Below are positions 3 through 64,000 of a stretch of 64,000 nucleotides of DNA, in pieces. The stretch is taken from positions 558,001 through 622,000 of the forward strand of contig OZ237758.1 of assembly GCA_965178125.1 (NCBI GenBank). Direction: 5' to 3'. The position numbers and the translations under genes are program-made. This DNA comes from Bilabrum cf. latius. Taxonomy: Eukaryota. Numbering within the stretch: the first letter of the stretch is position 1; each line of letters begins with the position of its first letter. The notes below the pieces were generated by a model. That model was not told where the DNA came from, did no database searches, and worked only from the letters and a program-made list of their open reading frames with translations.

Positions 3-3000
3 GATTTCCAGGAGCTGCTCGAGGCGCTGCTCCCCGGAGCTGGTGGTTTCTCCTCGGAAATGTTTGCAGCACAGGTAGAGGGGACCGGGGTGGTGGAAGC
101 GCAGGTGGCCGCGGCGGGCGGGATGGGAGACGGCCGCAAGCGGATCAAGAAAGGGACGATTCCGCACGACGAGGGCGCCATGAGTCGGGTGCGGCGACTA
201 CGTTTGCTCGCGCGACAGCGGTCGATAGGGAACAACAAGGGCGCGAACGAGATCGGCAGCCGCCCGGGCACCAGCAGCACCGGCCACTTCGAAAGCGGTG
301 CGGCTGCAGCGGACCATCATGCCGCGGTATTCAAGCAGCCGCTTCATGATGCCTCGCATGAGGACCAGGACCAGGACCAGGAGCTTGAGAGACCGAGGAG
401 GGGATAGCTGAGGGCCCTCGCGCATCGGTCAAGGGAGAGAATCAGCCTTAGGCTAAAGGCAAGCAGCAGCTTGGCGAGTCGCGTGGGTGCTTCGAGCTAG
501 AGGCACCTCGATAGGGTGCAGGAGGAGGCAGCGCAAGAAGCAGAGCGGATCCAGAGGGCAGGCAAGGCGCAGCTGTCGGAGCTTGGGGCACCCAGGGGCG
601 ACAATGATGCCAGTGGGGCGGGCTTTACTAGCAATGGCCGCGTAAGAAGTCGCAGGACCATCCTGTCAGGGACAGTGGCTGGGCCCGCAGGCTCAGGCAC
701 AGCTCAGTCGCCTCAGTCTGCGAAGTTTCGGTTCGAGGAGACGGTCCGCCGCGGGCGACTGCTGGACAAGCAGAGAAAGCTAGTGATGGAGAGGAGAACG
801 CTCAGAAGGAAAGCACGCGCGAGGCTTCAGCTGGCCCAGTACCTCGCGGGTCGATCTGAGGCAGGGGCAAGCATGGAGCCGGGTGACATTCACGGGGCGT
901 GCCTATCGTTCGGGAAGGGCTTGTTTGAGGTGCCAGTCCCCGGCATGCCCGCGCCTTGGCCAGGGTCGATCCGAGCAGGCACCGGCGCCTCTGGCTCAAG
1001 CACTGGCATGGGGCTTGAAGCGAGCACCCACAGCAACAGAGGCATGAGTCCTGCGGGGGTGGCCGATCAGGGGTGGGACGAGGGTGGTGCCACTGGCAGC
1101 GATGCGGGCTCCATGCACCCAACCGTGGCGCACTCGAAGGCAGAAACGATCGGGCTTGCGTCCAAGCTGGGGAGGGTTGGTGCTCGTGCTGGTGGGGGCA
1201 CTCCAATTGGCTGGGATCCCGAGAACGGTGGCGGCGAAGATGGGGGATCTGAGGATTCTGACGTGTTTGCGGCGAAATTGGGTGGGGGCGTGTCGCATCA
1301 TGCGGTGAGGGCTCGTCGAGCGTCAGTCGTGAGGTGGCAGAACATGCGAGGGGTCCAAGATGAGGGCAGGGAAGGTGGTGTCGATCGGGACCTGGGCCCC
1401 GCTTCAGATACCCCCGGTTTGGACTCTGCTTCGTCTTTGGCCAGGTTGCGGGAGTCAATCTACGGCAAGTACGAGACCCACATTGTTGAGGGAGCCGAGA
1501 CGGGGGCCACGCTATCAACGGAGCACAAGATGGAGCTGCTCCGCTCCATGCCGCGTCCCAAGGGTGCCGATATGCCTCACTACAGGATCGGCACGGTAGG
1601 TCAGCAAGTGCAGAGCTCATTGGCAGAGCTGGCTAGAGTCGGCGATGCGATGAAGGAGGCGAGGAGGGCGGCCATTGTGGGGCATAGGCATGGTGATGCG
1701 AGCAAGCAGGAGCCGTCGGGCGACTTGGACAAGCAACAATCGATGCGTCAATCTGGCAGCAACAGCAGCATTCTAGAAAGGTAGAGCGGGCGTGGCATGG
1801 CTTCAACAGCAGCTCCTTCAGCAGCAGCTCCTTCAGCCAGCTCTGGGCGCACCCAGACGCCCATCCTCGACAGGTGGAACGCAGCAAAAATTGCCAAGAG
1901 CAAGGGCCGGGGAGATAACAAGGCGCGCAAGGGAAGCAAAAAGGATATCAATCGCGCGCATGAGAGGCCAATTGGGCGTGCCACCGGAGATGACATGACG
2001 CACGACGGCGCTCTCAGCGTTGCCATGCCGACCCACGAGGTGCTTCAGAACGAAGCGGGGGCGGGCCATGTGCAAGGCGGCGTGGCGCTGAAGAAACTTA
2101 TCGATGTCCTGCTCGCAGACAACGTCGGTGACGACGCATGGAAGGACAGGCTGGAGCTGCCTTCGAGGCTGGTGATGCACCGGAGGCACTTCCTCATCAG
2201 CACCGTGCTCAACGCCCGCAGGATCGAAGCCGTCATCAGCCACCTGGTGGAGCTGGGTATCGAGGAGGCCAGAGAAGCGGGCGACGCCGAGGCGCTTTCT
2301 AGGCTGTCTGTTGTGAAGAACAGGCAGTACGAGAGGCAGCTGGAGCGGTCCGAGAGACTCAGCGCGTTGCGTTCCATCCTGACCAGGTCGCTGCAGGAGA
2401 GGAGGCAGGATCGCGCCGAGAAGGAGTAGAAGGAGGCTGTCGCGATGGAGAGGGCGGCGAAGGAGATGGGCGTGATCCCGGGCAATTTGGAAGCCGAGGA
2501 TTGCACTCGGGGTGGTGCCACTGCTGCTGCTGCTCCTGCTCCTGCTGCTCCTGCTGCTCCTGCTATTCCGCATGGGGACGGTGAGGCGCACGTGCACGGG
2601 TCTGCGGTGCTCTCCAACGCATCCAGCCGCCGCAGCAGCATCGACGGTCAGCCGGTGCAGCATTCCAGGAACCGGATCTTGGATCCTGAGGACAGGCCCG
2701 CCTCCGCTTTGTCCACCCTTTTCGACCCGCGGGAATTTGCGACAGAGGCGGAGAGGCCCGAGTCGCACTCGTCACACTCCCGACGAGGTCGCTCCCGCGT
2801 GATGGACCCGGACGCGGACGATTCGGACGACTCGATAGACAGGGCACAGGCAAGGCGACGGGCAGCAGTATCGAGGTTCCAATCGGCTGTGCGGACGGTG
2901 ATGCTGACGATCAGCGCAGAGAGAAGTCTCAAGGCCCGCGCGCAGGGGAGGGCGAGGCAGTTCGTGCGCGAGATCATGCGGCTCGCATCCCGTTCGGCTG

Positions 3001-3860
3001 GCGGGGAAGGCCAGGACGGTGGTGGAGGAGAGGAGAGCGGCCCGCGAATCAGCGAACTCAGGGAACGTTCGCTGGGTGCGGAAAAAGGAGGGCTCGTGGA
3101 CGGGAGGGCCAGAAAGAAAGCGGAGCAAGAGAGGCAGGCGAGAGCCGAGGCGAAGGTGCTCGTGGAGGCGGCGGTGCGTGCGGGGCAGCGCGCGGCAGGA
3201 GGGGCGGGGGCCGCGAGGGGGACGGGCCAGAGCAGCAGCAGGCAACTGGAGCTGCTGCCCGGCTTCCAGGACTCGACGCAGCCGCGGCTGAACGAGGCCA
3301 TGGCCGCCGCAGCGCTGAGGTCGGAAATCGGAGTGAGCATCAAGCAGCCGCAAGGTGACCCGGGCACTGGCAGCAGCAGCACCGACTTCGATTCCAATAG
3401 AAGAAGCAAGCAAGGCTAGTTTTCGGGAATGCATGGCGCTTCTTAGCTGACTACCATCGCGCTGGGCGCGCACGAGCGCCGCCGAGCAGATGCTCTGAAC
3501 GCTGCGGACGGTGTTTCAGGTGTGGCTGCTCGCACTAGGCTCGGAGCTGCGGGTGCCTCTGTCGTAGGAAAAGCCGCGAAATCAGCCCCTCCTGGTGTCG
3601 TCTCGACGGTTGGTAGCCTTGGTGGTTTAGTTGATGCGATGCGGGAGGGTGGGAAGTTTCTCAAGAGAGCTGGCAGGCAGCGAGCCAGAGCGAGTGCCCA
3701 CCCTCGGCCTCCCCCGGATTTCGAGGCAGAAGGGGGATCCCCTCGGGGAATGCAGTTTGACATTGGGTCTACAGAAGATCAGAAGGTAAAATTAGCGAGA
3801 GTGCGCGCCGGGGCAGCTGAGGATGCCGCAGGGGTGCTCGCGAAAGTGTCTCGGAGGTGA
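3..3860 (+). CDS. Large low-complexity/coiled-coil hypothetical protein, 5'-partial (TAG read as Gln)
   Basis: Track ORFs 60..407, 516..1784, 1797..2429, 2445..3419 and 3522..3860 share one frame, broken only by TAG (405, 498, 1782, 2427, 3417, 3444). The frame is open from the window start and ends at TGA 3858-3860. No domain recognised. Confidence 0.75.
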
Positions 3861-4482
3861 TGCCTTGCCGAAGTGCAGTCGATAGTATTGTTGCGTGCTA
3901 TTTTATAATCACATTTCTTGCTGCGCGACTTCCCGTCTCGAGGGTCGGGCGACAACACGGCCACTCTCCCGGTGTCCCTAAGTCATGGGACTGTGTGGAT
4001 CAAAGGCTGATATCAGTAATAGTCCCAGTAGTGGGGCTGGGGCAGGAGGACCCTCTGCGACTGGAGACGCCTGGAAGGTGAGCTTCAGGAGCTGAACTCC
4101 CGCACGACAGCTTTCTCCAGTATTTTCAAACAGACAGCCCGATGCTCTGAATAGTTTGGTATTACACTTCGATTTTGATGCGATATGGCAAGTGTTCATC
4201 CTTTGGTACGAGAAAAGCTGGATGTGTTCGTTGGTGTCCGGTTGCTGAATGTTGATTCTAGCCCTTTGCGACGACGATTATCATGGATCGCAACGTCGGC
4301 CTTTTAATGTTGCTCTTGTTTGGGTCACTGAGCATTTGATTTTTTTCATGCTGAGGTCGAACTCGAGCTGCCAGCCCCTGGCAAGGTGATCCCCGGGACT
4401 CAGACTGCTAATTTGCTCCAGTTGGGCGCTGCAAATACCATGAACAGCAATTTATCGCCTCACGAATATCTTTTTACCGCAG

Positions 4483-5727
4483 CAAACTACAATTGATGCT
4501 GATTATCGGTTCGACTCGAGCCCGAACGCAATCCTTGGAAGGGGGGCTTCGTCCGTTGTTCGGAGAGCCGTGCACAAAGCGACTGGAACTGTTGTAGCTG
4601 TCAAGGTGATGACGAAGAAGAAGCTATCGAAGGAGGATATTGCCGGCGTATACACTGAAGTTGAGGCGATGGAGAAGCTGAAGGGACACCCGAACCTGGT
4701 GCAGTTGCTGGGATTCTATGATACTAAGGAGCGGTTTTATGTTGTTCTTGAGTTCTTGGAGGGAGGCGAGCTGTTCGATAGGCTTACTCACAAGGAAATG
4801 TACATGGAAAGCGATGCGCGAGAAGCGATGCGCCTGCTGGTGGACGCGGTGCAGCACTGCCATACAAAAGGCGTTGCTCATCGCGATCTCAAGCCCGAGA
4901 ACATCCTTCTCAAAGATAAGGATTCCGATACCACCGTCAAGCTAGCTGATTTTGGATTTGCCAAGTCGTGCAACCACGGCGAGAGGCTTCTCCGGACGGC
5001 GTGCGGAACACCTGGGTGAGAAATCGAGCAATGGCAAGCAAGCGAGCGAGCGAGCGGACTTTGCCACCCACTGCCCTGCGGCTCTTGCTGATCACTGGCA
5101 GCTGCTGTGCGGAATTTCACGGCGCGTCTCTTGTGCCTTTTGTATCCTACTGCATCGTTTGCTTGGCTCCTTGCTTCTCTTTTATGCAGGTACGTGGCCC
5201 CGGAGATCTTGCGCAGGAAGCCTTACGGCGTAGAGGTGGACGTGTGGTCGCTCGGAGTGATCATGTACATTTTGCTGTGCGGATACCCACCGTTCTGGAG
5301 CGAGGACGAAACCGAGCTGTTCCGTCAGATCAAGACTGCAAAGTTCGAGTTTCACATGCCGGAGTGGAAGGACATCTCCAAGGAGGCGAGGGACCTCATC
5401 GGCAGGATGCTCGTCGTGAGCCCCGATGATCGGATCACCACGGCGCAGGTGCTCGAGCACCCGTGGATGAAGAAGGGACTGGAGCAGAAGAACCTCACGC
5501 AGACCAAGCAGGCCCTCAAGGGCTTCAACGCGCGCAGGAGGATGAAGAAGGCCATGGTGGTGGTGCGGGCCACCCTCAGGATGAGGATGCTGCAGGGGGC
5601 GCTGAAGGCCGCCGCGACGGACCTGAAGAAGCAGGACGAGCAAGAGGAAGAGGCGGCTGCGAAGGGGAGCGAGGAGGCGGAGGAGGCCGCGGGAGGTGCC
5701 AATGGGGCTGCTGCCGTGTCCACGTGA
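4483..5727 (+). CDS. Ca2+/calmodulin-dependent protein kinase (CaMKI-like); 5' exon unresolved
   Basis: Motifs LGRGASSVV, VAVK, HRDLKPEN, DFG, and GTPG|YVAPE joined across GT-AG intron 5016-5189, plus DVWSLG and a C-terminal FNARRRMKKAM CaM-binding-like segment. Acceptor at 4482; stop TGA 5725-5727. Confidence 0.9.
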
Positions 5728-5993
5728 AGTGGCCCTGGGTGTCTACCAATGTCGATGGGCCGGGGCGGCGGAAGCTGCTCAAAGCGGAGGCTCACACGCG
5801 GTGCCCAGTGCTCTCCGAAATCATCTTATGTGTTGGAGTACAATTTTTGTATCCTTGGCTGCTTTCTGCCATGGCCAAAGCCGGTCGCGGTGCGTATGCA
5901 TAATTCAGATCTGTGCTTAATTGTAGCGTGCACTGCGAGCCGTTGGCAAGGTTGCACAGGTGCCGTCCACCGCCCCGATACTGAGCGCGCAAA

Positions 5994-8900
5994 ATGTCCA
6001 GCCTTGCTGGTATTCCGTCTCTGGGATCATAGCGTCCTGGAAATCACGGGTCTTCTGGCGGTGGCCTGGGCCTAAGCTCGCTGGCATCTGCCCCATCGCT
6101 CACGGGCGGATCGGCGAATGACCCCAACGCACCCGGAAACACCTCCGGAGATTCTCTTGACGCCAATTTTGATGCCATGCTGTATCCTTCATCGAAAACG
6201 AAGAGGACATCGTCCCGTAGATCAGGAAGGGACAAGTCTTCGAGGAAGAAAGGCAAGAAATCGAAACGAGAACGAGGTTCGTCCTCCAAAAAGTCAGGTA
6301 AATCGAGCAAAAAGAAGGAGTCCATCAGATCGGAGTCCATCAGATCGCCTGGGCTAGCTAGCTCAGGTGGCTTTGATTTTGACTCCCCAGCAAAGTCTGA
6401 CCTCAGCCAGAGCGGGACAGGCATGAGTGGATTCTTTGACGAGGACGCTGGCCCGGGCAACGAGGGTTCATCTGCGGCGAGCGCGTCAATTCCGACGGGC
6501 AGAAGCGGATCACAAGGCGGGGGATTGGGACTGGGCCTCCAGAGCAGCGCCGGTGGCGGCTCAGGTCGCGATGCGCTGGAGCGAGCACTCTCTGGCACGG
6601 GCACCCGCCGCCGCGGCCTGGGCCTGGGGCTAGGGGCGGGGGGCGACAGCGCTGGACCTGCCCTTCCTTCCTCGGGTTTGAGCTACGGTGGCGGCAGCGG
6701 CACCGGTTCTCGCGCGAGTTCTGTGGCGGGCGCGGCCACCACGGGTGCGGGCGGTGCCGGTGGCGTGGAGGGGGGTCCGTCGAGCAGGAGATCGAGTCTC
6801 GGAATGACGATGGATGGCGGGGTCGCGAGAGGGGTCGGTGGTGGGAGTGGTGCTAGCGGATCAGGGGCTTGGGATTCAGCGCTCGGGGACGACTATGATG
6901 ACGATGACGACGACGACCATGATGACAATGGCAAGGGTGGCGGCGGCGGGGGAAGCGGGGGCGAGGATGTGGACGAGGAGGAGCTGCAGAGGCAGATCAA
7001 CGAGGCCCTGGGCCTAGCACCACCTGCTAGCAGCAGCGGCAGCGGCAATTCGAAGCAGAAAAGAAAAGAAAAGGAGAGCAAAAAGGACCCCGTCGCTCTC
7101 GGCACGAGAAGGAGAGGGGGAGGCGCAGGCGTTGCCGCCAGTGAGGCCGGCGTGCCGGAGCTTGGTATCCGCAAGCCGCCGAGCGGGAGCGGGGGTGCAC
7201 TGCACGGTGATGCTTTCGGTCCGTCTCCCCGCCCAGACTCTCGCCGCCAGCTAGGACCGCCACTCTCCTCTGACGAGGGGCCTGGCACCAGTAACGGCCG
7301 CATGCAGGTGCACGGCCACAGCTCTCGCAACCCCTCCAATTCTTCCACAGCCGCAAATTCCCCGCGAGATGCGGGTGCTTCTTCCAAAGGAGCCAGAGAT
7401 GGAACGGGCCGGGATATCACGGGCAGCCCGGGCAGGCGCCAGGTGGAGGGCGACTCGGCAGAGACGGGCTGGACGGGATCATCTGGCCTGGGCATGGGCT
7501 CGGCCGGGGATGCTGGACTGAGCGCTGCGCACGGGTCTAGACGGAGCTCAGGGGATCTGATGGGTGACGTGACGGATGAGGGCCGCCGCCGAGGCTCGGT
7601 GCCTGGGACCAGGCCGGCTGATGGCCATGGCAATGGGAGCGGCAGCGGTGCGCACGTTGGCTCGGGAAGTGGCGGGAAGGACGGGGGGGGGGATGAAGGG
7701 CTGCTGGGGAGGGACGATTCCTTCGGAATCGGGGGCGCGGATGATGACGACGACTGGGACGACTACGATGCCTCCATAGGAGAGAGCAAGGGGGTCCAGG
7801 GAACAAGCGGTGGCCAGGGAACACAATCGGGGACGGGGGTTGCCCCTGGTGACCTATCCCAGCTGCGGTCCCCACGGGGGATTCGCGGCAGTGCTGATAC
7901 CAGGGGTGGCGCAGGGGCCGCAGAAAGGGTCACTGACGATGATGGAGGATCTGCGTCAGGGTACGGGTCCTCGGCCAACAAGGACGGACAGGAGGGCTAC
8001 AGGATCGGGGGCGGGGCACAGGGTGAGCAGGGCCGGGGCAGCAGCCCGAGCCGCGCCTCCCTCTCTTTGAAGCTTCCCCTGGACAAGTCAGGCCACACCC
8101 CGTCGTCCTCGACCCGCAGCGGACCGCTCAGTCCCTCCTCGGGGTCAGGAAGGCGGAGAAGGGGGATGGCGTCAACGCCTGCAGAGGCTGCGGCGGCTGC
8201 CGCAGCAGCCGTCGCGGCGACATCGAATGCTTCAGACGAGCCGCGCGTGGGATTTAGCCCCGGTACGGGCGTGCATCTGGACGACGAGTACAGCGCCGAT
8301 TTCGACGACACCAGGCAGCAGGAAGGCGCGCGAGATGGGAGCAGCCAGGGTGGCGGTGGCGGGGGTGCGACTGGCGGGCCATCAAGCAAGAGGACCGGGA
8401 GCGGGAAGCAATCGTCCAGGAGCAAGCACAGGAGCTCATCGGACTCTCACGGTGGCAGGGGAGACCGCGCACTTGATTCCGCGAGAAGGAGAGCGGAAGC
8501 AGCGGAAGCGGACGCCGAGTCGCTTCGCGAGCAGCTGTCCAGGGAGCGTAGGACTGCAGCGGAGCGGCTCGAGGCGGCAAATCGGCGACATCGCGCAGAA
8601 AAGGAAGAGCTTGCGGCCGCCGAATAGCGCGCTCTTGACACGCTGAGGCAGTAGCTGGAGGCCGAGGCCCGGGAGCAGCGGGCCGGCGGAGAAAGGGCGA
8701 GAGCGGCCGAGCGCCGTGAGCTGGAGCAGAAGGCCGAGGCTGCTCTGGCGAGAGAGAGGGCGGCTCTGGCGGAGCTCCGTGCCAGGGTGGAGCAAGCCAC
8801 TGCAAGCGCCCAGCGGATTGCCAGGGAACAACAGGAGAGGGAGATGGAGCAGTTCCGGACCAGGGTGTCCAAAGAGGCCGAAGCCGAGCTGGAGAAGGAG

Positions 8901-10190
8901 AGGGCTCGTTTCGAGCAGCAGTTGCAGGAGACCAGGGAGGCACACAGGGAACAAATGGAGGAGCTTGGCCGCAGGCACGAGCACAAGCAACAGCATACCG
9001 ACGCCGCCAGGGAACTAATGCAAGCCACTGAAAAGCTCCAGAAGCTGGAGCAGCAGGTTTCGGCAGCCAGCCAATAGGCCATGGACCGCCGGGAGGCGGC
9101 AGTCAGCGAGCGAGAGGCAGCCGTCCATGAGGCAGAGAGAGAGGCCAAGAGGGCCAGGGAGGACGCGGCTCGGTCGGCAGAGCGGTTGAGCGAGCTTGTT
9201 TCGTCCATGGAGCGGGCCGCATCATCGGCGCGCCTCTCGACTGAGGACGAGAGGGAACGACTCAGGGCGGAGGCGCAGCGGCTCAAGGCCTGGCAGGACT
9301 CGTTGCAGTCCAGGGAACAAGCGCTCGCGGAGGAGAGGGCGACGGCGGGCAGGCAGGCAGCGGATCTGCGCGAGGCAGCCGAGGCGGACGCGGCCTCTGC
9401 CAGGAAGGACGCGGCCAGGGCCCGGGAGGAACAGGCGCAGGCCGTGCGGGCTGCGGCGGCGGCGCTTGAGGCCTCGCGCAAGGACTCCGAGTCCGCGAGG
9501 CGCGCGCTGTTGTCCGCGGAGGAGGACCGTCGGGAGGCGCACGAGGCCCGCAGGGAGGCGGAGGCCCTTAGGGAACAAGCGGCGAGGGAGAGGGAGGAGG
9601 CAGGCGAGGAGAGGAAGCTCGTGAGCGCGGAGCAAGGAAAGGTGAGAGCAGCGGCAGAGGCGCTCGGGGCGCGGGCGGACGAGCTGCGGAAGCTGCGGGC
9701 AGAGGCGCAGGCCGCGCAGGAGGCCGCTGCGGAACATCGGCGCCGCGCAATGGAACTGCACGCCAGCACGCGGGAGGCCGAGGCCAGGGCGGGCCAGGTC
9801 CGCGCCGAGGCGACTCAGGCAAAGCTCGCGGCAGACGAGGCCCGGCTGCAGCTAGCCCAGGGCCGGCGAGCCGCGAGGGGCCGCATGCCAGTGGAGGAGC
9901 ACGCGGGCCGCTCCTCGGAATCGGCCCAGTCTACTTTCGTGGCGCCTCCGCAGCTGCCGGGCGGCGGAGCGGCCGGTGAGTACAATCAGCAGCAATGGGA
10001 GTATCGTGGCCATGGGAGCGCAGGCAATGCAGTTGCAGGGCCGGCTCCGTCAGGCGGGTCGCCAGGCGCACAAGGTGGTAACACGGAACTCAAGGTAACT
10101 CCGCTCCATGACCAGTGGATGAGGGAGATTGGAAGGACAAGGGACATTCTGAAGGAGTTCGACATCTCGCTAGGGGCGGCTGGTGACTGA
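5994..10190 (+). CDS. Gly/Ser-rich N-terminus plus C-terminal coiled-coil protein (possibly FBF1-like)
   Basis: Single frame from ATG 5994 to TGA 10188-10190, interrupted only by TAG (6030, 8625, 8652, 9075). The segment ERLSELVSSME...ERERLRAEAQRL loosely recalls the FBF1 C-terminal coil (weak, from memory). Confidence 0.75.
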
Positions 10191-12313: not shown

Positions 12314-12434
12314 GCCTCGAAATGTGTCATCTGTTCAATCCACGTCTCTGGCCAATATGGAACGTTCGACCAGGTTCCTTGAAATGACGGCCAGTCACCC
12401 AATCATCTTTCACAAGTTCCGTGCGGTCGTAAAC

Positions 12435-42721: not shown

Positions 42722-42819
42722 GGCTATTCAAATGGCTTACCGATTCTCGTTCGGCGCCGCGCAACAGCAGCGATTGCGGAACCGATGACTTGGTGCTCCG
42801 CTCTCCGGCAATCTCCTAC

Positions 42820-53018: not shown

Positions 53019-53180
53019 CTTACTAATTACTGCGTTGTCAGCAGATATATTGACATGGTTTGTTGGATTCTGTCGCACTCGTCATCACATGTACCAACAC
53101 GTTTCAATACTCTCAAGAATCTGTATTAGGATGTTCGTCGGAACAAATCCATACTAACTACAGCACCGCAGTAGCTAAAC

Positions 53181-54293
53181 ATGCAACAAGGGGCAGCATC
53201 AGGATCTGGGTCAGATGGAAAAGGGGGAGCCGCTGCAGCGGGTCGTACCGCAACTCCTGTTAAGGCGCGATTCGGCTTCATTGGCATTGGCAAGATGGCA
53301 ACAGCAATCATCAAGGGTATGCTGGACAGCGGCATGTCGACTGCCGAAAACATCATCGGATCGGCACCCTCGGATCGGAACATGGGACCCTTGAAGGAAA
53401 TGGGCGTAAAGACTACCCACGACAACCTGGAAGTTGCACAGCGATCTACAGTGATTGTTCTTGCGGTAAAGCCGCAGCTTTTGTGGCCCGTTGTTGAGCA
53501 GATCCGGTCTCGCGTGACGCCCGGCCATCTAATTGTATCGGTCGTAGCGGGTGTATCTACGGAGCAGCTGGCGGCAGCATTTGGCAAGGGAACTCGTGTC
53601 GTGCGAGTCGTCCCGAACACTCCGTGCGCCATCCGCCACGGGACAACAGCGGTCACTGCCGGCTCAAACGCCACGCCCCAGGACACCGAGCTAGTGCGTT
53701 CTATTTTTGAGCAGATGGGCGTGGTCCGCGTCCTCCCCGAGAGGGTCATGGATGTGGTCACGGGCCTGGCTGGCTCCGGCCCGGCCTTTGTCTTCCTTTT
53801 CCTGGAGGCTCTGAGCGATGGGGCCGTGCAGGCGGGGCTGCCGAGAGACGTGGCACACGAGTTCGCAGCGTCCATGGTGCACGGCGCCGCGGCGCTCGCA
53901 AAGGAGACGAGGACCCACCCTGGGGTGCTCAAGGACGCCGTGTGTTCCCCCGGGGGAACAACCATCGCGGGGGTCAGGTCCCTCGAAGACGCTAGGTTCC
54001 GCGCGGCCGCCATGGGGGCGGTTACAACCGCCGCGGCCCGCTCCGAGGAGCTGAGGCTCAAGGGGCCCTCCCCTGCTGAGCTGGCAGCCAAGCTGGCGGC
54101 GTCCAGGGGAGGCGGAGGCGGTGCGACGGCGGTTACTGCGGCTGCGGCCGGGTTTGGCAAATAGGAGGGTTCGTTCGAGGGTTCCACCAAGGCGGTTGTT
54201 CCCTCTGGGGAGGCACCCGCGGCGGCAGCAGCTCGGGGCAGCCCGGTGGCAGGCGGCGAGGGCGGGAGCGGGGCTGGAGACGGAGGGAGATAA
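53181..54293 (+). CDS. P5CR: Pyrroline-5-carboxylate reductase
   Basis: GFIGIGKMA, LAVKPQ, VSVVAG, RVVPNTP, TGLAGSGPAF, VCSPGGTTIAG. Read through TAG 54162-54164 to TAA 54291-54293. Confidence 0.96.
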
Positions 54294-54605: not shown

Positions 54606-55650
54606 TCACGCCATCTGGCCCAGCTCGTTGAACCGCTTGTCCAGCCCCTCCATTGCGTTGGGATCCACGTGGAGGTTCCTCAGCCGGATGCCCATGTACA
54701 CCACGAGCCCAACAACTCCCACCAGGATCAGCATCATGATGACGAGCACGACACCCTCGGCGCTCATGCCGTTGCTCGCCGGCTTCACTTTCTTCTCGCA
54801 TCGTGACCCGTCGTGGCCGTCGTTGCAAAGGCACCTCGCTCCAGATGCGATGGTGTCATACGCGCAAATGCCGTGTCCGGAGCAGATGGACGTCGGCGCT
54901 CGCCCGGAGGCCACGTCAATGTCGGTGCACTCCGTGGGGCAGCCGTAGATGCTCTGGATGAACACGTCGTAGTGGCAGCTGTTGCTCTCCCAAACGGGTT
55001 CTTCCTGCCCGTCGAACGTGTTGTCTGGGTCAGGGGCGCATTCGAAGTGCAGAGAAAAGGACCTGTTCACGCGGGCGCCGTCCACGAACTAGCACCCGTC
55101 GTTGGAACCGCCCTCATACGACAAAACCACACCCCGACCGGGCACCTCAGGGTCTGCGACATGGAGATAAGCGAGAATAAGTTTAAACACTTGGTCCAAT
55201 TAGGCATTTGGTTTGCACCGAGGGCCACGTGCGACTCTTGGGTGCCTTTCTCATCGGCTCGGCTGAGCATGCAGAACGGCTGAGCATGCCCTCACTTGTG
55301 TAATTGAACTTCCATGGCTGTGAGTCTACCGATGCACCCAATGGCTAGCAATTGTCATGAGTCTATGTGGGCCTAGGCTGCATCTGGAATACCGGCGCTT
55401 CCGTAGTGCAAGTCTCTTCGCTTGCCCTTGGCGGAACATCCGTGTTGCCGCACACGTTAAAAACGTAACTGAAATCATGGTTAGGATCATTGGTCCCATT
55501 TCGAATGTCAACGACGCTATAGCTGCTCGCCGCGTCTCTGCTAAGCATGGAGAGGTCGAATGTCACCCCATTCTCTGACCAGGAGCAATCCTGGGCAAAA
55601 ACAACAAGACTGACCGAGCTCAAAACAAGCGTGGAAACTAGTGTGCGCAT
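54606..55650 (-). CDS. Type I membrane protein with MRH (mannose-6-phosphate receptor homology)-like and EGF-like domains
   Basis: Signal peptide, FDLSML, YVFNVCG, GVVLSYEGG..C, RSFSLHFEC, CHYDVFIQSIYGCP, EGF-like CSGHGIC...CLCNDGHDGSRC, TM helix and short tail. Intron 55154-55295; 3 TAGs; stop TGA 54606. Confidence 0.8.
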
Positions 55651-55806
55651 AACTCTGACTGCTGAGATTTCTACAGTATATTTCTAGCCACTTCTTGGAT
55701 CCTTCCGCGAGGATCTGGTTTGGTTGCAGTTTGTAACGTGCTAGAATTTGACAGCCGAATCCTGAGAGAAAACGGTGAGATTCACGAAGATCTAGACCCT
55801 GCAGCC

Positions 55807-56512
55807 ATGATGCGCCAGCTCGGACGTGTCGCCCGACGTGTAAAGGTGCCGAGCTTCGCTGCTCCTGGCGCCTGCATGCACACAGCTCGGTTCATGTCTA
55901 CTGTTCACTATACCGAAGAGCACGAGTACGTCAAGGTGAGATTGCTGCCACACAGAAGCCAATAATTCAGCAGTCATAGCATATTATGCTTGGAAATATT
56001 GTGAGCAATTGTTGCAATTGTGAATTTTTGCTCAATGCGTCGTTTCGCAGGTGGATGGGGCCAAGGCTACCATCGGGATCACTGACTTTGCATAGAACCA
56101 GCTCGGTGACGTGGTGTTCGTCCAGCTACCAGAGGTCGGCGACTCATTTGATAAAGGGTGAGGTAGCCTTGATGCAGGCGTCACTGGTTTGCTTGGGCAG
56201 GTACCGAGGCACGTCAGCTGGGCTCGCAGTGACGGTGCACGTCAACGATTAACACGATTTTTCAAATATCTGAATTCCCGCAGGGATGTTATCGGAGCCG
56301 TTGAGTCTGTGAAGGCAGCTTCGGACGTGTACGCTCCCGTGAGCGGCACCGTGGTGGCAGCGAACGAGGATTTGGCCGAGAACCCGGGCCAGGTGAACGA
56401 GAGCCCCGAGGACAGCGCGTGGTTCTGCACCATCGAGTCGGATGAGGCCAAGCTTGCCGAGGAAACAGCAGAGATGATGAGCGCCGAGAAGTACAAGGAA
56501 TTCTGCGACTGA
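55807..56512 (+). CDS. GCSH: Glycine cleavage system H protein, mitochondrial
   Basis: Arg-rich transit peptide, [27 protein letters not shown], lipoyl motif [21 protein letters not shown]. Exons 55807-55935, 56051-56157 and 56284-56512; stop TGA. Confidence 0.97.
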
Positions 56513-57468: not shown

Positions 57469-59406
57469 TCAGGTACCAGACCCACCCCCCTGCGCCTGCG
57501 AGCCGCCCCCGGCATCTCCCGCGCCTGACCCAGGCGTGGCGCCCCCCCCTCCCTCTCCATCCCCCCCCGCTCCCTTGTCGGCCTTGTGGATGGCTTCGAT
57601 GTCCTCGCGGAGGAACGGGTGGTTCAAGGCCTGCATGGGCCGTATCCTGACCGCGGGGTCCCATTCGAGCATCCTCTCGATGAGGTCAAGGAACAAGGCG
57701 TAGTCACGCTCGGTGTGACCGGTTGTCTCATCGGCTCGCCTGCCGGAGGGTCCCTTGGTGTGCACACCGAGCACGGTCCTCAGGTCCGTGAATACCTTTG
57801 GCTCTCGTGAGGAGGGCGGCTTGGACCTTGGCTTGACCGAGTACACGCTGGGGAGGGGCTGCTTCCCCAGGTGTTCCTTGCGGAACCTCGATCTCCTCTC
57901 CCTCAGCCGCTGCTGCTGCTCCCTCTGCTTCGCTGTGCTCGCCTCCGAGGCGGCTGTGGAGCACTTGCCCGTGGAGTAGGGCACCACCACCACAGAGCCG
58001 GCAGATGCCTCTGGCCCGTCCGACGTCTCCGGCGGCTCGCTGTCCGACATGGGTGCGGAACCGCTTTGCGCGGCGCCGGATCCGCCACCCCCGGATCTGC
58101 CGAGACTGCCTGGCGGAAGCCCCGCCGCCGGCCACTCGTCATCCGACTCCTCGCCCAGCAGCGCCTCAAGCTCCGCCGCACTTCGCCTGACCTTCGAGTC
58201 GCCCTCCTTGTTCCCTGGGTCGCCTGCCCCAGAGGACGGAGCGGTCGCGCTGGTGGAGCTAGAGGCGGACCCTGCAGCAGCCGAGGACGACGAGCCGCCC
58301 TCAGCGGCCGCGCCGGCCCCCGGCGGCAGCGCAGGGGCCTTGCCCTCCTTGGCCCGTTGTTCCCTGAGCTTGGCCAGCCTGCCGGACACGTCCGAAGGGG
58401 TGGCAGCCTCGGCCGGCCGCACGTCGAAGAAGTGCTTGGTTTTCTTCCCCTTCTCAAGCATGGCCCGCGGAGGCAGCCCCTTGAGCGTCACGAACCGCCT
58501 CATCTGGTCGCTCTCGTCCCGGCCCGCGAACAGGGGCACCCCCGTGTGCATCTCCACGAGGATGCAGCCGAGGCTCCACATGTCGATGGCCTGCGTGTAT
58601 CCCAGGCCCAGGATCACCTCCGGGCTTCGGTAGAACCTGGACTGGATGTACACGTACACCTGCTGGTCCCTCCGGCACGACGACCCGAAATCGATGACCT
58701 TGATGGCAGACCGGGTAGGCTGCCTGAACAGGATGTTCTCTGGCTTGAGGTCGCAGTGGATGACGTCAATGTCGGGGAGGGAGAGGAAAGCCAGCGTCTT
58801 GAGGATCTGCCTCGCGAACTTGCGGATGAGGTTTAGAGAGACGCCACGGAAAGAGGTCCTCCTGAGCAGCTCGTATAGGTTGAAACTGAGGTGTTCAAAC
58901 ACGAGGCACGTGTGCCCCGAGAAGTCAAACTGCTCGTAGAACCTGACGATGCACCACTGGTCGTCAGGGTCCATTTTGTTGAGCAGCTCGAGGAGCTTGA
59001 TCTCGGTCTTGGCCTGCCGCCTGAACGCCTCCTTGCTCTTGACCACCTTGATGGCGACCTTGCGCTCTGTTCCGTCTGGATTCGTTTGCTGCGTGTCAAT
59101 CGCGGACACGACCTGCCCGAACGAGCCCCTGCCCAGCGATTTCTGCACCTTGTACCTGCCGTGGATGATCTGCCCCTCCTGCACTTCGAAATCGTAGGCC
59201 TTCCTGCCTTCCTCCTTCTGCTTCTAGCGCTCTCGCTTCTTTTTGTAATAAACCTCGTTGATGAGCTTGTACGTTCCAAGCAGGTGGGTCGTGAGCTTGC
59301 GCATGGGAGCGTCCTTGCTCTGTCTCGATGGCTTCTTCGATTCGTCACTTCCACCGTCACCTCCGTTGCCGCCCGGCCGATCCCCCGACCCGCTTGCCTA
59401 TGCCAT
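57469..59406 (-). CDS. DYRK1-like dual-specificity kinase
   Basis: N-terminal APMRKL...TYKLINEVYY box, GRGSFGQV, HCDLKPENIL, DFGSSC, YxY activation loop VYVYIQSRFYRSPEV. ATG 59406, TAGs at 59398 and 59224, stop TGA 57469. Confidence 0.94.
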
Positions 59407-60776: not shown

Positions 60777-62959
60777 TTACTAAGCGGCCTTTCGAATGGC
60801 AAGCGTTCCAACCTTGCTCGCCTCCCTGGCAGCGGCAAGCAAGTCCTCCACGATCTCCTAAGGCTCGCCCTTCGGGGCAGACTGGGCGTACTCCGCTGCA
60901 CTTCTGGCCGCTGCAATTGCCTGATTCAACGCGCCGGACTCGCCCTCCCGAGCACTTGCTCGGGCAAGACGAGCGAGCGCGGCGCGCAGCTGCTCCCTTG
61001 CTCGCTCTGCGACCTCCTCCGCACCCTCGTCGCCCCCAGCCCCCGCACCCGAAGACGCCCCCGAGCTCGTCCCATCACCACCATGCGATGCACCCTTGCC
61101 TCGCAGGAGCACTTCCGCAGTCGCTCGCAAGACAGCTCCAATGCATCGCACCGAAGTCTCGGCTACTTGCAGGCTGACCCCCCCGGCCTCCCACAGGGGT
61201 GTACCCCCCCCACTGCGGGGTACAGCCTCCAGGGCACACGCCGCGAGAGCACCAAGAAGCGGCCATGCACCCGCTACACTGCCATCCCCCGTGGCAGACG
61301 CCTCGCCCGTGCCCGTGCTCGTGCTCGCCTCTCCCGGAGCACTTGCTCCGGTGCTCCCCCCTGCTCCCACGATGGCCGCACACACTGCCAGGCCCCTGGG
61401 CCCGTGCAGCAACCGGAGGAGGCACCTCGCCGCCTTGGAGCGGAGCCTGCCCTTGTCCGGCCAATCGTCAGCGCTCGCAGATGCGCGGCGCCGGTTCCGC
61501 AACAGCATGGCCTGCAGCAGGAGCGGTAGCACGGGCGGGTTGTTCGGAGGCTCGCCCAGCCAGCCCTTGCCCGCCTCCGCTGCCCCGTCCGATCCTGTTT
61601 CTGGTGCTGGTCCTGGCGTTGGTGCAGCCGCCACGGAACTGTCCCCACCTTGTGCGGTTGCAACCGGCTATGTCGCAGATCCGGAGCTAGAGCCCTCCTC
61701 TGTAGCGGACGGGGCCGCAGCTGTGGGGCTGGGGCTTACTATCATCGAGGTGGACACGGAGGTTCCGCTGGCGGGCGGCGCCGCGACAGGAGCCGGTGGA
61801 GAGGTGCCTTCGCTCGTTTTCTGCTCCTCTGCCTCTGCCCCAGGGGCCGGCTTGGCTGTCCCGTCCGGGCTTGTTCCGGGTTTCAGCGGGGCACTTGCCG
61901 CGCCGGGGGCGCCATCGTGCGCGATGGATCGCATCTGCAGCGCCACGTCCTGGGCCGGGGCGAATCCCCCGAGGAGAGAGGACAGAGCGAGCACGCACTT
62001 GGTCGCAACTCTGGCCTCGCCCACCGCTGCTGCGGCGCGGCCCGCCTGTTCAGGAGGAGCGCCAGCGCCAGCACCACCACTATCGGATGTTTCACTTTCA
62101 GCGAATGATTCACTCGTGCGTCGCAATGCGGTGGACAGTCTCCGAAGCACGGCGTGCAGTGCTCCGTTTCTCAAAGCAAGTGCTTGGGCCGGCGGGTGGT
62201 TCTGCACCACAGTAGACAGCGCCTCGCAGGCCCCTGCTGACACGCGGGGTGACGAGTGCGACGTGAGCCGGATCAGAGGGACCATTCCGCCCATGGCTCC
62301 AAGAATCGTGCTGTTGTCGCTGCTCGAGCAGAACATGTTCAGCTCGTCCAGAGCGTCCGCCAGCCGCTCCGGGTCGCTGGCCACGGCAGCCTCCAAATCT
62401 ACCCCCTCAGCAGCGCTTGCCAATTCCGTGTCCGTGCCCGAGCTAGCACTGTCTGCGCTTGATTTGGATTCGCTGGCGGCAGATGCATCGCTGGGGGCTG
62501 CTCGCGGTGCAGGCGGCAGAACTGCACCGTCGCGTCCGACCCTCGCACCCTTTTGCATGAGCGGCGCTACGGGTACGCCAGCTGCCCTTGATATCGTGCG
62601 TGCCAAAGATCGCACCTGCTCAACTTCATCGATCTGCATAGATCGATAGATTGGATGGATGGAAACATGACGAAACACGTGGAACTTGGACACACTCTCA
62701 AGCAAAAGCCAGGAAAGGCACCGATTTCTCTCAGAAATGAACTCACGGTGATTGACTTGATGGCATTCTCCAAAAAATCCTTGTCGGCATCGCTCATCGG
62801 CTTTGGGGGATCCATTGCGTCGCTGCCGCCGGCCGGTCCGGGCAAGTCCCTGATCTCTACACCATCAAGAGCAGATCGGCCAGCTCTGGGATCTCTAGCG
62901 TTGCTAGTGTGCTCAATTGCCCACCGAAAAACGGACAAAAACTTATCGGCATCCGACAT
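60777..62959 (-). CDS. Hsp70 nucleotide-exchange factor FES1/HSPBP1-like ARM protein
   Basis: FRWAIEH, MSDADKDFLENAIKSIT|IDEVEQV, LDELNMFCSSSDNS...MGG, TVVQNHPPAQ, KCVLALSSLL. Intron 62634-62746; TAGs at 61668, 60858 and 60780; stop TAA 60777-60779. Confidence 0.85.
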
Positions 62960-63115
62960 AAGTCTGTGAATTTACAATATGATAGACTTGCACTCGTGGC
63001 TGTTCTTGTTGGTTCCGTTTGGGCAAACTGCGCGGCGCTGGTGACGACGGGTACCCGGACTACTCGTTCCTTGCTGTTACAACGGTACCCACCAAAGGTT
63101 CATAGTGAGCACTTA

Positions 63116-64000
63116 ATGGGGTGTGGTGCATCGAATAGTGCTGCAAGTGGAGGAGCGGCGCTCTCTGAAGCCGATGCAGCGATGCAAGCAGCGCGGGAAG
63201 CTGACAAGAAGCATCATAGAGTATTATTGCTAGGTAAGAAAAGGATATATGTCCATGATATGCCCGCAACATGCATGCAAGATATCTTTGGTCCAAAAGG
63301 TTCCGGAAAATTGTGATTCCATGCACGTCGGATGCTACCGTCGGGTGTGTTCGTTGCATGCCTACTGGCACCAAGTCACAACCTTGTGGTTTGCACTGTT
63401 GCAGGAACGGGGGAAAGCGGAAAGAGCACAATTATAAAGCATGTCTAGATGTAGCTGCTAAAAGTGAGGAGAATATCTGCGTGTTATCTCCACAGTGCCT
63501 CCCAACTGCCGCCAAGGCATCGAAGTCATGACAACGGAATTATTCCCAGCGTCCGCAGGGTGGCATTCCTGAAGCTAGTAAGAGTACTTTCAGGGATGGA
63601 ATACGATAGAACTGTTTAGACTGCATATAGGCGCTTGTGGAAGCTACTGAGTCATTGGAAATAGATATTGAGGACGAAGGCAACGCCAAGCTCGCCGAGG
63701 AGGTGAGTTTGCTCGATTGAGCCACGCCAGGTTCTATTTTCTTGCAAGACAGCTGTGTAAAGAATTTAGGGTCTTTTCAAAAGTCGTTCCGAGTTTTCCT
63801 CTTTCAAAGGTCCCGTTGCGCAGTTGCTAGATGTGACGTTAGACGATTTTGGTCCGGATATTGCAAAGAAAGTCACGTAGCTTTGGCACGATGACGCCAT
63901 CCAGGCGGCGTACGAGCGAAGAAATGAATTTTGGCTGCTGGACGCGTGTCCCTACTACATGGAGCACGCGGAACGCGTGGCCGCCGAGGACTTTGAGCCG
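63116..64000 (+). CDS. Heterotrimeric G-protein alpha subunit, 3'-partial
   Basis: MGCGAS acylation motif, VLLLG|TGESGKSTIIK P-loop, LWHDDAIQAAYERRNEFWLLD..YYM. Introns 63234-63404, 63464-63558 and 63703-63823. TAGs at 63446, 63452, 63607, 63628 and 63878. Confidence 0.95.

What the first reader, a model, noticed from the sequence alone, without database searches (positions are those of the whole stretch)
3..64000. Non-standard nuclear genetic code: UAG is a sense codon while UAA and UGA remain stops
Seen: 19 of about 22 genes, on both strands, carry in-frame TAGs (roughly 90 or more by hand) and no internal TAA or TGA. These include conserved housekeeping genes such as GCSH, the SLC25 carrier, glutaredoxin, DYRK, G-alpha and GH2. 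Gene ends are TGA (18) or TAA (4: carrier, RPB6, P5CR, FES1-like), never TAG. Established: most eukaryotic reassignments change UAA and UAG together; split codes are rare (e.g. UAG=Gln in the fornicate Iotanema spirale and in a few ciliates). Inference: this GC-rich, intron-containing genome does not look like those lineages, so it may be an independent and possibly undescribed origin. That would require a tRNA with a CUA anticodon and an eRF1 that ignores UAG but recognises UAA and UGA.
Basis: partly seen in the sequence, partly recalled or inferred. Interest (0 to 1): 0.97.

Follow-up and report, generated by a model that had tools for sequence, protein, structure and literature searches.

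The report
UAG read as glutamine in a protist
This GC-rich protist nuclear DNA uses the stop codon UAG as a glutamine codon while UAA and UGA still end genes, a rare code variant so far reported only from a few ciliates and one anaerobic flagellate.

Summary
With TAG read through, the window opens into frames of 4104, 1402, 1286 and 1280 codons; reading TAA through changes nothing at the top of the ORF list. In 19 curated ORF segments (15,560 codons) there are 77 in-frame TAG, 0 TAA and 0 TGA. Twenty or 21 gene ends are TGA (16-17) or TAA (4), none TAG.

TAGs are in mRNA. Contigs of three runs carry GT..AG splice joints that the DNA run lacks, and they cover TAG codons of Grx3, DYRK, P5CR, the MRH/EGF gene and one unknown gene without a changed letter.

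The amino acid is glutamine:
- The glycine-cleavage H protein has TAG at a Gln present in 5 of 5 solved homologues shown.
- Close relatives have Gln at 5 window TAG sites in Hsp33, SLC25 and DYRK.
- A syntenic metagenome contig uses in-frame TAG itself.

TAA is a true stop at the conserved C-termini of RPB6 and SLC25.

Its proteins lean towards stramenopiles, not ciliates or fornicates. Seven literature searches found no such report. The tRNA and eRF1 could not be tested because no genome is held. It is a new member of a known kind of code.

The parts
3..3860 (+). Open frame of 1285 codons (5' end cut by the window), unknown protein, 6 in-frame TAG, ends TGA
   Evidence: no Pfam family
4444..5727 (+). 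CaMK-like protein kinase gene, at least two exons, no TAG seen in the last exon, ends TGA
   Evidence: kinase motifs read in the translation; not scanned against Pfam
5985..10190 (+). Open frame of 1401 codons, low-complexity N-terminal part and coiled-coil C-terminal part, 4 in-frame TAG, ends TGA
10322..12334 (-). Hsp33-like chaperone gene with 9 in-frame TAG (12263-12265, 12098-12100, 12089-12091, 11744-11746, 11402-11404, 11285-11287, 11030-11032, 10577-10579, 10346-10348), ends TGA
   Evidence: Pfam HSP33 1.2e-21. Relatives have Gln at the 1st, 2nd and 5th sites and TAG at the 3rd. Coordinates.
13250..14134 (+). Last exon of a mitochondrial carrier (SLC25) gene, one in-frame TAG at 13688-13690, ends TAA
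   Evidence: Pfam Mito_carr 4.3e-22. The 76%-identical orthologue in L001 has Gln (CAG) at the TAG site and ends at the same two last residues with TGA.
14732..16018 (-). Fcf2 pre-rRNA processing gene, 1 in-frame TAG (15461-15463), ends TGA
   Evidence: Pfam Fcf2 5.1e-24
16174..28485 (+). Giant coiled-coil gene, open frame of 4103 codons with 22 in-frame TAG (20 after the first ATG), ends TGA; holds a 3210-nt tandem duplication
28641..32204 (-). Phosphatase gene (Metallophos domain with EF-hands, weak CAP-Gly match upstream), no coding TAG, ends TGA
   Evidence: (nearest Atlas clusters are phosphatases with EF-hands)
32645..36855 (-). Two overlapping long open frames (628 and 798 codons) of unknown proteins, 4 and 6 in-frame TAG, each ends TGA
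36770..39749 (-). Glycoside hydrolase family 2 gene in at least two frames or exons, in-frame TAG at 36980-36982 and 39624-39626, ends TGA
   Evidence: Pfam Glyco_hydro_2_C 1.5e-12, Glyco_hydro2_C5 4.9e-13
40396..42007 (+). Grx3/PICOT-type monothiol glutaredoxin gene with an intron at 41466-41646, in-frame TAG at 40546-40548 and 41008-41010, tentative TGA end at 42005
   Evidence: Pfam Glutaredoxin 2e-35. The splice joint and TAG-bearing contigs have 0 other letters in X7 and X8. Homologue columns.
42197..42950 (-). RPB6 (RPABC2) gene with two 87-nt introns (42354-42440, 42617-42703), no TAG, ends TAA at 42197-42199
   Evidence: the last exon aligns to within 0-3 residues of the C-termini of solved RPB6 chains.
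46332..48227 (-). C2H2 zinc-finger array gene, 1 in-frame TAG (47997-47999), ends TGA
   Evidence: Pfam zf-C2H2 9.4e-67
49242..53081 (-). Open frame of 1279 codons, unknown protein, 13 in-frame TAG, ends TGA
   Evidence: An X6 contig with 0 other letters covers 3 of its 13 TAGs.
53181..54293 (+). Pyrroline-5-carboxylate reductase gene, one TAG (54162-54164) in the tail behind the conserved domains, ends TAA
   Evidence: Pfam P5CR_dimer 3.9e-38
54606..55900 (-). Membrane protein gene with an EGF-like domain, intron at 55154-55295, 3 in-frame TAG (one at 55089-55091), ends TGA at 54606
   Evidence: X8 contig 54429-55153 has 0 other letters.
55800..56512 (+). Glycine-cleavage H protein gene with introns 55934-56048 and 56157-56282, in-frame TAG at 56093-56095 in the 108-nt middle exon, ends TGA at 56510
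   Evidence: Both joints are seen in X6, X7 and X8 and not in X3. Spliced frame. The TAG aligns to Gln in 5 of 5 solved H proteins shown.
57469..59406 (-). DYRK1-type kinase gene, in-frame TAG at 59398-59400 and 59224-59226, ends TGA
   Evidence: Pfam Pkinase 1e-45. Contigs 57570/57578-59782 have 0 other letters in X6, X7 and X8. Gln at the second site in 5 of 6 well-aligned relatives.
60777..62864 (-).
63000..64000 (+). 5' part of a G-protein alpha subunit gene (cut by the window end), in-frame TAG at 63878-63880

Best explanation
The window is nuclear DNA of a GC-rich, intron-bearing protist. In its genetic code UAG is a glutamine codon, about 9% of the Gln codons in the window. UAA and UGA remain the only terminators, with UGA used at about four ends in five.

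Shown here:
- TAG is frequent in frame.
- TAG stays in spliced mRNA.
- TAG sits where close relatives and conserved families have Gln.
- TAA and TGA never occur in frame, and they close genes at conserved C-termini.
- At least one, probably two, related environmental organisms share the trait.

Inferred, not shown:
- Decoding by a tRNA-Gln with anticodon CUA. It would be derived from tRNA-Gln(CUG) by one anticodon change, as proposed for Iotanema in PMC5304391.
- An eRF1 that no longer, or only poorly, recognises UAG but still recognises UAA and UGA.
- Origin by loss of UAG as a terminator in a genome where UGA already dominated, followed by capture of UAG.
For: (1) ORF statistics. TAG read-through gives frames of 4104, 1402, 1286 and 1280 codons; TAA read-through does not lengthen the top ORFs. 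In-frame counts in 15,560 codons are 77 TAG, 0 TAA, 0 TGA.

(2) Transcripts.
- Contigs of X6, X7 and X8 carry GT..AG or CT..AC joints at 41465>41647, 42353>42441, 55153>55296, 55933>56049 and 56156>56283. The DNA run X3 has none of them.
- Contigs with 0 other letters cover these TAGs: Grx3 2 of 2, DYRK 2 of 2, P5CR 1 of 1, the unknown 49242-53081 gene 3 of 13, and the TAG at 55089-55091.
- The 108-nt GCSH exon that holds TAG 56093-56095 is bridged by joints on both sides.

(3) Residue.
- GCSH: TAG aligns to Gln in 5 of 5 solved H proteins shown, of 13 matched.
- Hsp33: TAG sites 1 and 2 align to Gln in the syntenic relative L001, and site 5 to Gln in relative P0122.
- SLC25: TAG aligns to Gln in the 76%-identical L001 orthologue.
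- DYRK: the second TAG aligns to Gln in 5 of 6 well-aligned relatives out of 22 compared.
- Grx3 site 1: Gln in 56 of 120 homologues.
- Summed mean BLOSUM62 score over 11 site sets: Gln 27.9, Glu 13.5, Leu -14.6.
- In the coiled-coil genes, TAG sits at core heptad positions a or d in 19-30% of cases, like Gln (13-15%) or Glu (16-18%) and unlike Leu (53-59%).

(4) TAA is a stop.
- If TAA:TAG followed CAA:CAG (155:598), about 20 in-frame TAA would be expected; 0 are seen.
- RPB6 ends at TAA within 0-3 residues of solved C-termini.
- SLC25 ends at TAA where the relative ends at TGA, after the same two last residues.

(5) The relative L001 has 4 in-frame TAGs in its Hsp33 gene, one at the same codon as the window.
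Against: - Distant homologues do not always show Gln at TAG columns. The second Hsp33 site is Leu in 91 of 134 and Gln in 10. The third is Glu in 92 of 134. Grx3 site 2 is Glu in 68 of 120 and Gln in 7. The G-alpha site is Ala in 5 of 5 shown.
- In less well aligned parts of Hsp33, L001 has Val, Asp and Ser opposite window TAGs.
- The runs that I treat as RNA are only guessed to be RNA by the tool, and X6 is flagged 'probably DNA'. Their RNA origin rests on the splice joints.
- Only 40 of about 240 difference rows were shown. For the GCSH exon I cannot cite a zero-difference row.
- No tRNA, eRF1 or peptide evidence exists.
- A terminal TAG followed by open frame cannot be recognised from sequence. 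One TAG lies directly before a TAA, and one lies in the unconserved tail of P5CR.
- All evidence comes from one 64-kb window plus one 3.7-kb relative.
Confidence: 0.9

Rival explanations
1. [quoted passage not shown]
For: - Three genes have a TAG close to the annotated end. The FES1-like frame ends TAG-TAA. Hsp33 has a TAG 7 codons before its TGA. P5CR has a TAG in its unconserved tail 43 codons before TAA.
- Relative positions of TAG in the ORFs show mild excesses in the first and last fifths: 27, 13, 10, 10, 17.
Against: - None of the 20-21 gene ends needs TAG.
- The ends that could be checked against homologues fall at TAA or TGA: RPB6, SLC25 and, by the end of the conserved part of its translation, GCSH.
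- The excess in the first fifth is more simply explained by 5' leader included before the true start codon.
- TAG occurs all along long ORFs, including 20-22 times in one gene.
Confidence: 0.07
2. UAG is a sense codon for another amino acid: glutamate most likely, leucine as in the rhizarian exLh, or serine as reported for Scotinosphaera.
For: - Glu is the commonest residue at two TAG columns: Grx3 site 2, 68 of 120, and Hsp33 site 3, 92 of 134.
- Leu is the commonest at Hsp33 site 2, 91 of 134, and in 2 of 2 solved Hsp33 structures.
Against: - Close relatives have Gln at 5 sites, including the 'Leu' column of Hsp33.
- The GCSH site is Gln in 5 of 5 shown.
- Leu occurs in 2 and 0 of 120 homologues at the two Grx3 sites, and Ser in 1 and 3.
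- The heptad test disfavours Leu by 2.7-6.5 log-likelihood units.
- Summed BLOSUM62 score: Gln 27.9, Glu 13.5, Leu -14.6.
Confidence: 0.02
3. The TAGs are not translated: sequencing or assembly errors, pseudogenes, codons removed by splicing, or codons edited in the RNA.
For: Nothing positive. One ORF-internal TAG (frame 31209-32204, 25th codon) is probably an intron acceptor, not a codon (my reading).
Against: - 77 in-frame TAG against 0 TAA and 0 TGA in 15,560 codons.
- An independent DNA run (X3) and three transcript-like runs give the same letters.
- TAGs lie in exons of spliced contigs.
- The same codon is TAG in a relative that is only 64% identical in that domain.
Confidence: 0.01

Closest known systems
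Iotanema spirale (Fornicata) nuclear code, UAG = Gln with UAA kept as a stop (Panek et al. 2017, PMC5304391; abstract and passages read)
   Same: - Same assignment: UAG is Gln, and UAA and UGA terminate.
- Same kind of evidence: in-frame UAG at conserved Gln positions.
- The same mechanism is proposed there: a tRNA-Gln(CUG) gene mutated to CUA.
   Different: - Different organism type. The window's best protein matches are stramenopiles, and the genome is about 60% GC with introns.
- UGA, not UAA, is the main terminator here.
- Iotanema was known from a transcriptome only, according to the passages read.
Ciliates with UAG = Gln only: Hartmannula sinica, Trochilia petrani, Protocruzia tuzeti (NCBI translation table 15; McGowan et al. 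2024, PMC11687900; passages read)
   Same: Same code table: UAG is Gln and UAA is kept as a stop.
   Different: - In those ciliates 93.5-100% of the C-terminal alignments ended at UAA, per the passage read. Here 16-17 of 20-21 ends are TGA.
- A 64-kb GC-rich contig with multi-exon genes and stramenopile-like proteins is not ciliate-like.
Rhizarian exLh (Sainouroidea), UAG = Leu (PMC5304391)
   Same: UAG alone is reassigned; UAA and UGA are stops.
   Different: - The residue is Leu there: 82 of 86 hyperconserved UAG positions. Here it is Gln, and Leu is rejected.
- There the stops were UAA 56 and UGA 15.
UAR = Gln codes (NCBI table 6 type: many ciliates, hexamitid diplomonads, Streblomastix, ulvophycean green algae, Amoeboaphelidium; listed in PMC11687900)
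   Same: A stop codon is captured for glutamine, probably through a mutated tRNA-Gln.
   Different: UAA is reassigned too in those lineages. Here there are 0 in-frame TAA where about 20 would be expected, and TAA closes 4 genes.
Phage 'genetic code 15' (TAG = Gln in crAss-like and Lak phages; seen in search listings only)
   Same: Same codon and the same residue.
   Different: That is a viral, late-gene recoding in bacterial hosts. This is a cellular eukaryotic nuclear genome.

Membership tests
UAG = Gln, UAA/UGA = stop nuclear code (NCBI table 15 type) | In-frame UAG in conserved protein-coding genes, present in the mature mRNA | tested here: met
   77 in-frame TAG in 15,560 codons. TAG-bearing contigs belong to runs that show GT..AG splice joints.
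UAG = Gln, UAA/UGA = stop nuclear code (NCBI table 15 type) | UAG falls at positions where orthologues or conserved families have glutamine | tested here: met
   GCSH 5 of 5 shown. Five sites have Gln in close relatives. Grx3 site 1 has Gln in 56 of 120. Gln has the best summed score. Against: three columns where distant homologues have Leu, Glu or Ala.
UAG = Gln, UAA/UGA = stop nuclear code (NCBI table 15 type) | UAA is absent in frame and is used as a terminator | tested here: met
   0 in-frame TAA against about 20 expected. TAA sits at the conserved C-termini of RPB6 and SLC25.
UAG = Gln, UAA/UGA = stop nuclear code (NCBI table 15 type) | UGA is absent in frame and is used as a terminator | tested here: met
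   0 in-frame TGA in 15,560 codons. 16-17 gene ends are TGA.
UAG = Gln, UAA/UGA = stop nuclear code (NCBI table 15 type) | UAG is never used as a terminator | tested here: inconclusive
   No gene end needs TAG, but a terminal TAG followed by open frame cannot be recognised. TAG-TAA closes the FES1-like frame, and one TAG lies in the P5CR tail.
UAG = Gln, UAA/UGA = stop nuclear code (NCBI table 15 type) | A tRNA-Gln with anticodon CUA | not testable with these tools
   No genome is held. No tRNA gene was found in the window or in L001.
UAG = Gln, UAA/UGA = stop nuclear code (NCBI table 15 type) | eRF1 with an altered N-domain that spares UAG | not testable with these tools
   eRF1 is not in the window, and no genome is held.
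UAR = Gln code (NCBI table 6 type) | In-frame UAA as well as UAG | tested here: not met
   0 in-frame TAA. TAA read-through does not lengthen the top ORFs.
UAG = Leu nuclear code (rhizarian exLh type) | UAG at conserved leucine positions | tested here: not met
   Leu is found in 2 and 0 of 120 homologues at the Grx3 sites. The heptad test goes against Leu. The one Leu column in Hsp33 is Gln in the closest relative.
Ambiguous stop/sense codes (Condylostoma, karyorelicts, Blastocrithidia) | All three, or at least UAA or UGA as well, occur in frame as sense codons | tested here: not met
   0 in-frame TAA and 0 in-frame TGA.
UAG = Ser nuclear code (Scotinosphaera, as cited in PMC11687900) | UAG at serine positions | tested here: not met
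   Ser is found in 1 and 3 of 120 homologues at the Grx3 sites. The summed score for Ser is -2.5 against 27.9 for Gln.

The most novel reading that the evidence does not exclude
This is the first nuclear stop-codon reassignment in the stramenopiles. It would be an independent origin of UAG = Gln, with UAA retained, in a GC-rich heterotrophic lineage near the Labyrinthulomycetes, shared by a clade that also lives in sampled environments (at least two relatives seen here). Because UGA already closes about 80% of genes and TAG makes up about 9% of Gln codons, the clade would be a natural system for asking why UAG and UAA can be uncoupled. It would also allow tracing the order of events (loss of terminator use, tRNA, eRF1) among close relatives with and without the change.
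Probability: 0.45. Interest if true: 0.85.

Novelty: new member of a known kind. Interest (0 to 1): 0.8.

Why it matters
Nuclear codes in which UAG and UAA differ in meaning are very rare. The passages read in PMC5304391 and PMC11687900 list one rhizarian, one fornicate, one green alga and a few ciliates.

A further, apparently unrelated lineage matters for three reasons:
- It has a high-GC genome, real introns, long contigs, transcript data and environmental relatives. It adds an independent case for testing the rule that UAA and UAG evolve together.
- It allows a test of which eRF1 changes let a cell ignore UAG alone.
- It allows a test of whether capture follows from disuse of UAG as a terminator.

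There is also a practical point. Gene calling with the standard code breaks this organism's genes into pieces. The database already holds such pieces of a relative's Hsp33, cut exactly at TAG. Any annotation of this genome or its relatives needs translation table 15.

Tried and rejected

- Whole genome: not held. Genome-wide code inference and searches for tRNA, eRF1 and 18S were therefore impossible.
- tRNA and Rfam scans of the window found nothing. A tRNA scan of L001 found nothing.
- The word-index search with Hsp33 found nothing. The full HMMER search did.
- The look-up of sequencing runs listed no holder on record as RNA. I used the splice joints seen instead.
- Parts without transcript-like cover, such as 42868-45535, say nothing.

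**Hypotheses considered and dropped**
- UAG = Leu. I took this up seriously after both solved Hsp33 structures showed Leu at one TAG site. I dropped it after the relative's Gln, the Grx3 columns and the heptad test.
- UAG = Trp at the weak CAP-Gly match, the first residue of a match below Pfam's cut-off. I read that TAG as the end of an intron. This is not verified.
- The E-to-TAG difference between the two copies of the tandem duplication in the giant gene is uninformative, because the copies differ at many other residues too.

**Uninformative results**
- The G-alpha column is variable (Ala in 5 of 5 shown) and tells nothing.
- Taxon. The call with the TAG-free phosphatase gave no taxonomic lead.
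- The accession prefix of a recurring EukProt homologue was not found in the papers. The listing of cluster members gave no names.
- The Grx3 tree is unresolved, with no starred clade holding the window. The DYRK tree is a single-gene FastTree.

**Not done**
- Supplementary files of papers were not asked for. Codon tables of Panek 2017 and McGowan 2024 that sit in supplements were not seen.

Full report
**What the window is.**
The 64 kb are 56-64% G+C throughout and hold no tRNA or Rfam family. Pfam scans of the long frames find ordinary eukaryotic genes:
- Hsp33, Fcf2, and a Metallophos phosphatase with EF-hands;
- a GH2 glycosidase, and a Trx-Grx-Grx monothiol glutaredoxin;
- a C2H2 zinc-finger array, and pyrroline-5-carboxylate reductase;
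- a mitochondrial carrier, and a DYRK kinase.

RPB6, the glycine-cleavage H protein and a G-alpha subunit were recognised through solved structures. Introns are real. Contigs of three public runs skip 181, 87, 87, 142, 115 and 126 bases with GT..AG ends (CT..AC on the minus strand), and the DNA run laid beside them shows none of these joints.

**Check of the observation.**
- Stop-to-stop ORFs under the standard code reach 865 aa.
- With TAG read through they reach 4104, 1402, 1286, 1280 and 934 aa.
- With TAA read through the top of the list does not change.
- With TGA read through the longest is 941 aa, although TGA is twice as frequent as TAG in the sequence.
- In 19 curated ORF segments totalling 15,560 codons there are 77 TAG, 0 TAA and 0 TGA. 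From the background frequencies, about 207 TGA and 39 TAA would be expected in non-coding frames of that length (my arithmetic).
- I count in-frame TAG in 18 of 21 recognisable genes, and at least 82 TAGs in all. A 22nd frame, 42445-45246, is of doubtful coding status.
- Gene ends are TGA in 16 cases, 17 with the doubtful frame, and TAA in 4.

**Are the TAGs in the mRNA?**
The look-up of sequencing runs listed no holder on record as RNA. However, X6, X7 and X8 contain spliced contigs and X3 does not, so they hold transcript-derived sequence. X6 may hold DNA too.

Contigs with 0 other letters cover these TAGs:
- both Grx3 TAGs (X7, X8). The contig abuts the spliced Grx3 contig;
- both DYRK TAGs (X6, X7, X8);
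- the P5CR TAG (X6);
- 3 of the 13 TAGs of the 49242-53081 gene (X6);
- the TAG at 55089-55091 of the spliced MRH/EGF gene (X8).

The GCSH TAG (56093-56095) lies in a 108-nt exon with a splice joint on each side in all three runs. For that exon no zero-difference row was among the rows shown. So the TAGs are neither spliced out nor edited, as far as these contigs reach.

**Which amino acid?**
The two solved Hsp33 structures show Leu at one TAG site. Since a rhizarian is known to read UAG as Leu (PMC5304391, passages read), I tested Leu seriously.

(i) Heptad test. In the coiled-coil genes, TAG falls on core heptad positions a or d in 19-30% of cases. That is like Gln (13-15%) and Glu (16-18%) and unlike Leu (53-59%). 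Leu is disfavoured by 2.7-6.5 log-likelihood units, with some sites counted twice because of an internal duplication.

(ii) Grx3 columns. Over 120 Grx3 homologues, the first TAG column is Gln 56, Val 28, Glu 12, Leu 2. The second is Glu 68, Asp 20, Ala 9, Gln 7, Leu 0.

(iii) Close relatives of Hsp33. The full HMMER search found short database proteins that are pieces of close relatives' orthologues, cut by standard-code gene calling.
- One piece led to a 3,663-nt metagenome contig, L001 (55.6% GC). It carries Hsp33 and the SLC25 carrier head to head, as in the window.
- In L001 the window's first two Hsp33 TAG sites are Gln (CAA, CAA), and the third is TAG as well.
- The SLC25 TAG site is Gln (CAG) in a 76%-identical orthologue.
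- L001 has four in-frame TAGs of its own.
- A piece from a second relative (79% identical) has Gln at the fifth Hsp33 site and ends where the window has its sixth TAG.

(iv) DYRK. The second TAG is Gln in 5 of the 6 relatives that align there without gaps (Leu in the sixth), out of 22 compared.

(v) GCSH. The TAG sits in the lipoyl-protein motif where 5 of 5 solved H proteins shown have Gln, with 13 matched.

Against Gln:
- Distant Hsp33 homologues have Leu (91 of 134) and Glu (92 of 134) at two sites.
- G-alpha has Ala in 5 of 5 shown.
- L001 has Val, Asp and Ser at three poorly aligned sites.

A rough sum of mean BLOSUM62 scores over all 11 site sets gives Gln 27.9, Glu 13.5, Lys 2.2 and Leu -14.6. 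I conclude that UAG is Gln.

**Are UAA and UGA really stops?**
- CAA:CAG is 155:598. If TAA were Gln too, about 20 in-frame TAA would be expected beside 77 TAG; there are none.
- The last RPB6 exon aligns to solved RPB6 chains up to 0-3 residues from their C-termini and is followed by TAA.
- The SLC25 gene ends with TAA where the relative's orthologue, with the same last two residues, ends with TGA.
- GCSH ends with TGA after the conserved domain.
- Whether UAG ever terminates cannot be decided. One frame ends TAG-TAA, and P5CR has a TAG in its unconserved tail.

**Mechanism.**
- Shown: the codon's use and its meaning.
- Inferred from what is established for other reassignments, and proposed for Iotanema in PMC5304391: a tRNA-Gln(CUA) that arose from tRNA-Gln(CUG), and an eRF1 that spares UAG.
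- Neither could be looked for, because no genome is held.
- TAG makes up 77 of 830 Gln codons. UGA closes about four genes in five, which fits capture of a terminator that had fallen out of use. That is inference only.

**Who is it?**
- The run labels are coded.
- The best named Grx3 matches are stramenopiles (a pelagophyte, brown algae, oomycetes, a raphidophyte), at only 40-45% identity.
- The best named DYRK match is the thraustochytrid Hondaea, at 62%.
- In a single-gene FastTree of 88 DYRK sequences, the window sits in a well supported group of 12. The other members are unnamed environmental sequences and one EukProt transcriptome entry. That group lies within a supported group of 29 that also holds Hondaea, apart from the diatoms.
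- The Grx3 tree is unresolved.

This is a lead towards a heterotrophic stramenopile, not a placement. It is clearly neither ciliate-like nor fornicate-like.

**Comparison with what is known.**
The assignment equals NCBI table 15. According to passages read in PMC11687900 and PMC5304391:
- UAG = Gln with UAA kept as a stop is reported for Iotanema spirale and for the ciliates Hartmannula sinica, Trochilia petrani and Protocruzia tuzeti;
- UAG = Leu is reported for the rhizarian exLh;
- UAG = Ser is reported for Scotinosphaera.

Seven full-text searches found no paper that reports a nuclear stop-codon reassignment in a stramenopile, or UAG = Gln in any other non-ciliate. The library lacks most subscription journals, and the runs date from 2025, so an existing or forthcoming description cannot be excluded.

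**Verdict.**
- It is a new member of a known kind of code, probably in a lineage where none was known, and it is shared with environmental relatives.

Noticed in passing
window 18776-25219: A tandem duplication with a period of 3210 nt (1070 codons), 98% identical, lies inside the giant coiled-coil gene. The copies keep the reading frame and share three TAG sites. One further site is GAG (Glu) in one copy and TAG in the other.
   Followed up: partly
window 45536-47536: The C2H2 zinc-finger array gene has a summed contig depth of 4,600-12,600 in DNA run X3, against about 100 elsewhere. It also shows many 'goes back' joints. This points to a very large, near-identical finger-repeat family or many gene copies in the genome.
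   Followed up: no
window 41647-42007: Behind the Grx3 intron lies a third glutaredoxin domain whose residues are almost the same as those of the second domain. This looks like a recent internal duplication. The four 'other letters' at 41289-41322 in X6 and X7 may come from cross-matching between the two copies.
   Followed up: no
window 10322-14134 and L001 1-3663: Hsp33 and the SLC25 carrier are divergently arranged neighbours both in the window and in a metagenome contig of a relative (64% and 76% protein identity). Public protein collections hold that relative's Hsp33 only as pieces cut at TAG.
   Followed up: yes
window 10322-12334: The Hsp33 gene is unusually long, at 670 codons. About 300 low-conservation residues lie between the N-terminal domain and the C-terminal cysteine pairs. 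Two distant homologues of 460-473 aa have the same layout.
   Followed up: no
window 28641-32204: The phosphatase combines a Metallophos domain and several EF-hands with a weak upstream CAP-Gly match (23 bits, below Pfam's cut-off). The TAG at the start of that match is probably an intron acceptor.
   Followed up: no
window 60777-60785: The FES1-like frame ends with TAG directly followed by TAA.
   Followed up: partly
window 45897-45937: A CAG/CAA-rich stretch differs in length between runs. One loose end in X8 shows a TAG inside a run of CAG and CAA triplets. The reading frame was not established.
   Followed up: no
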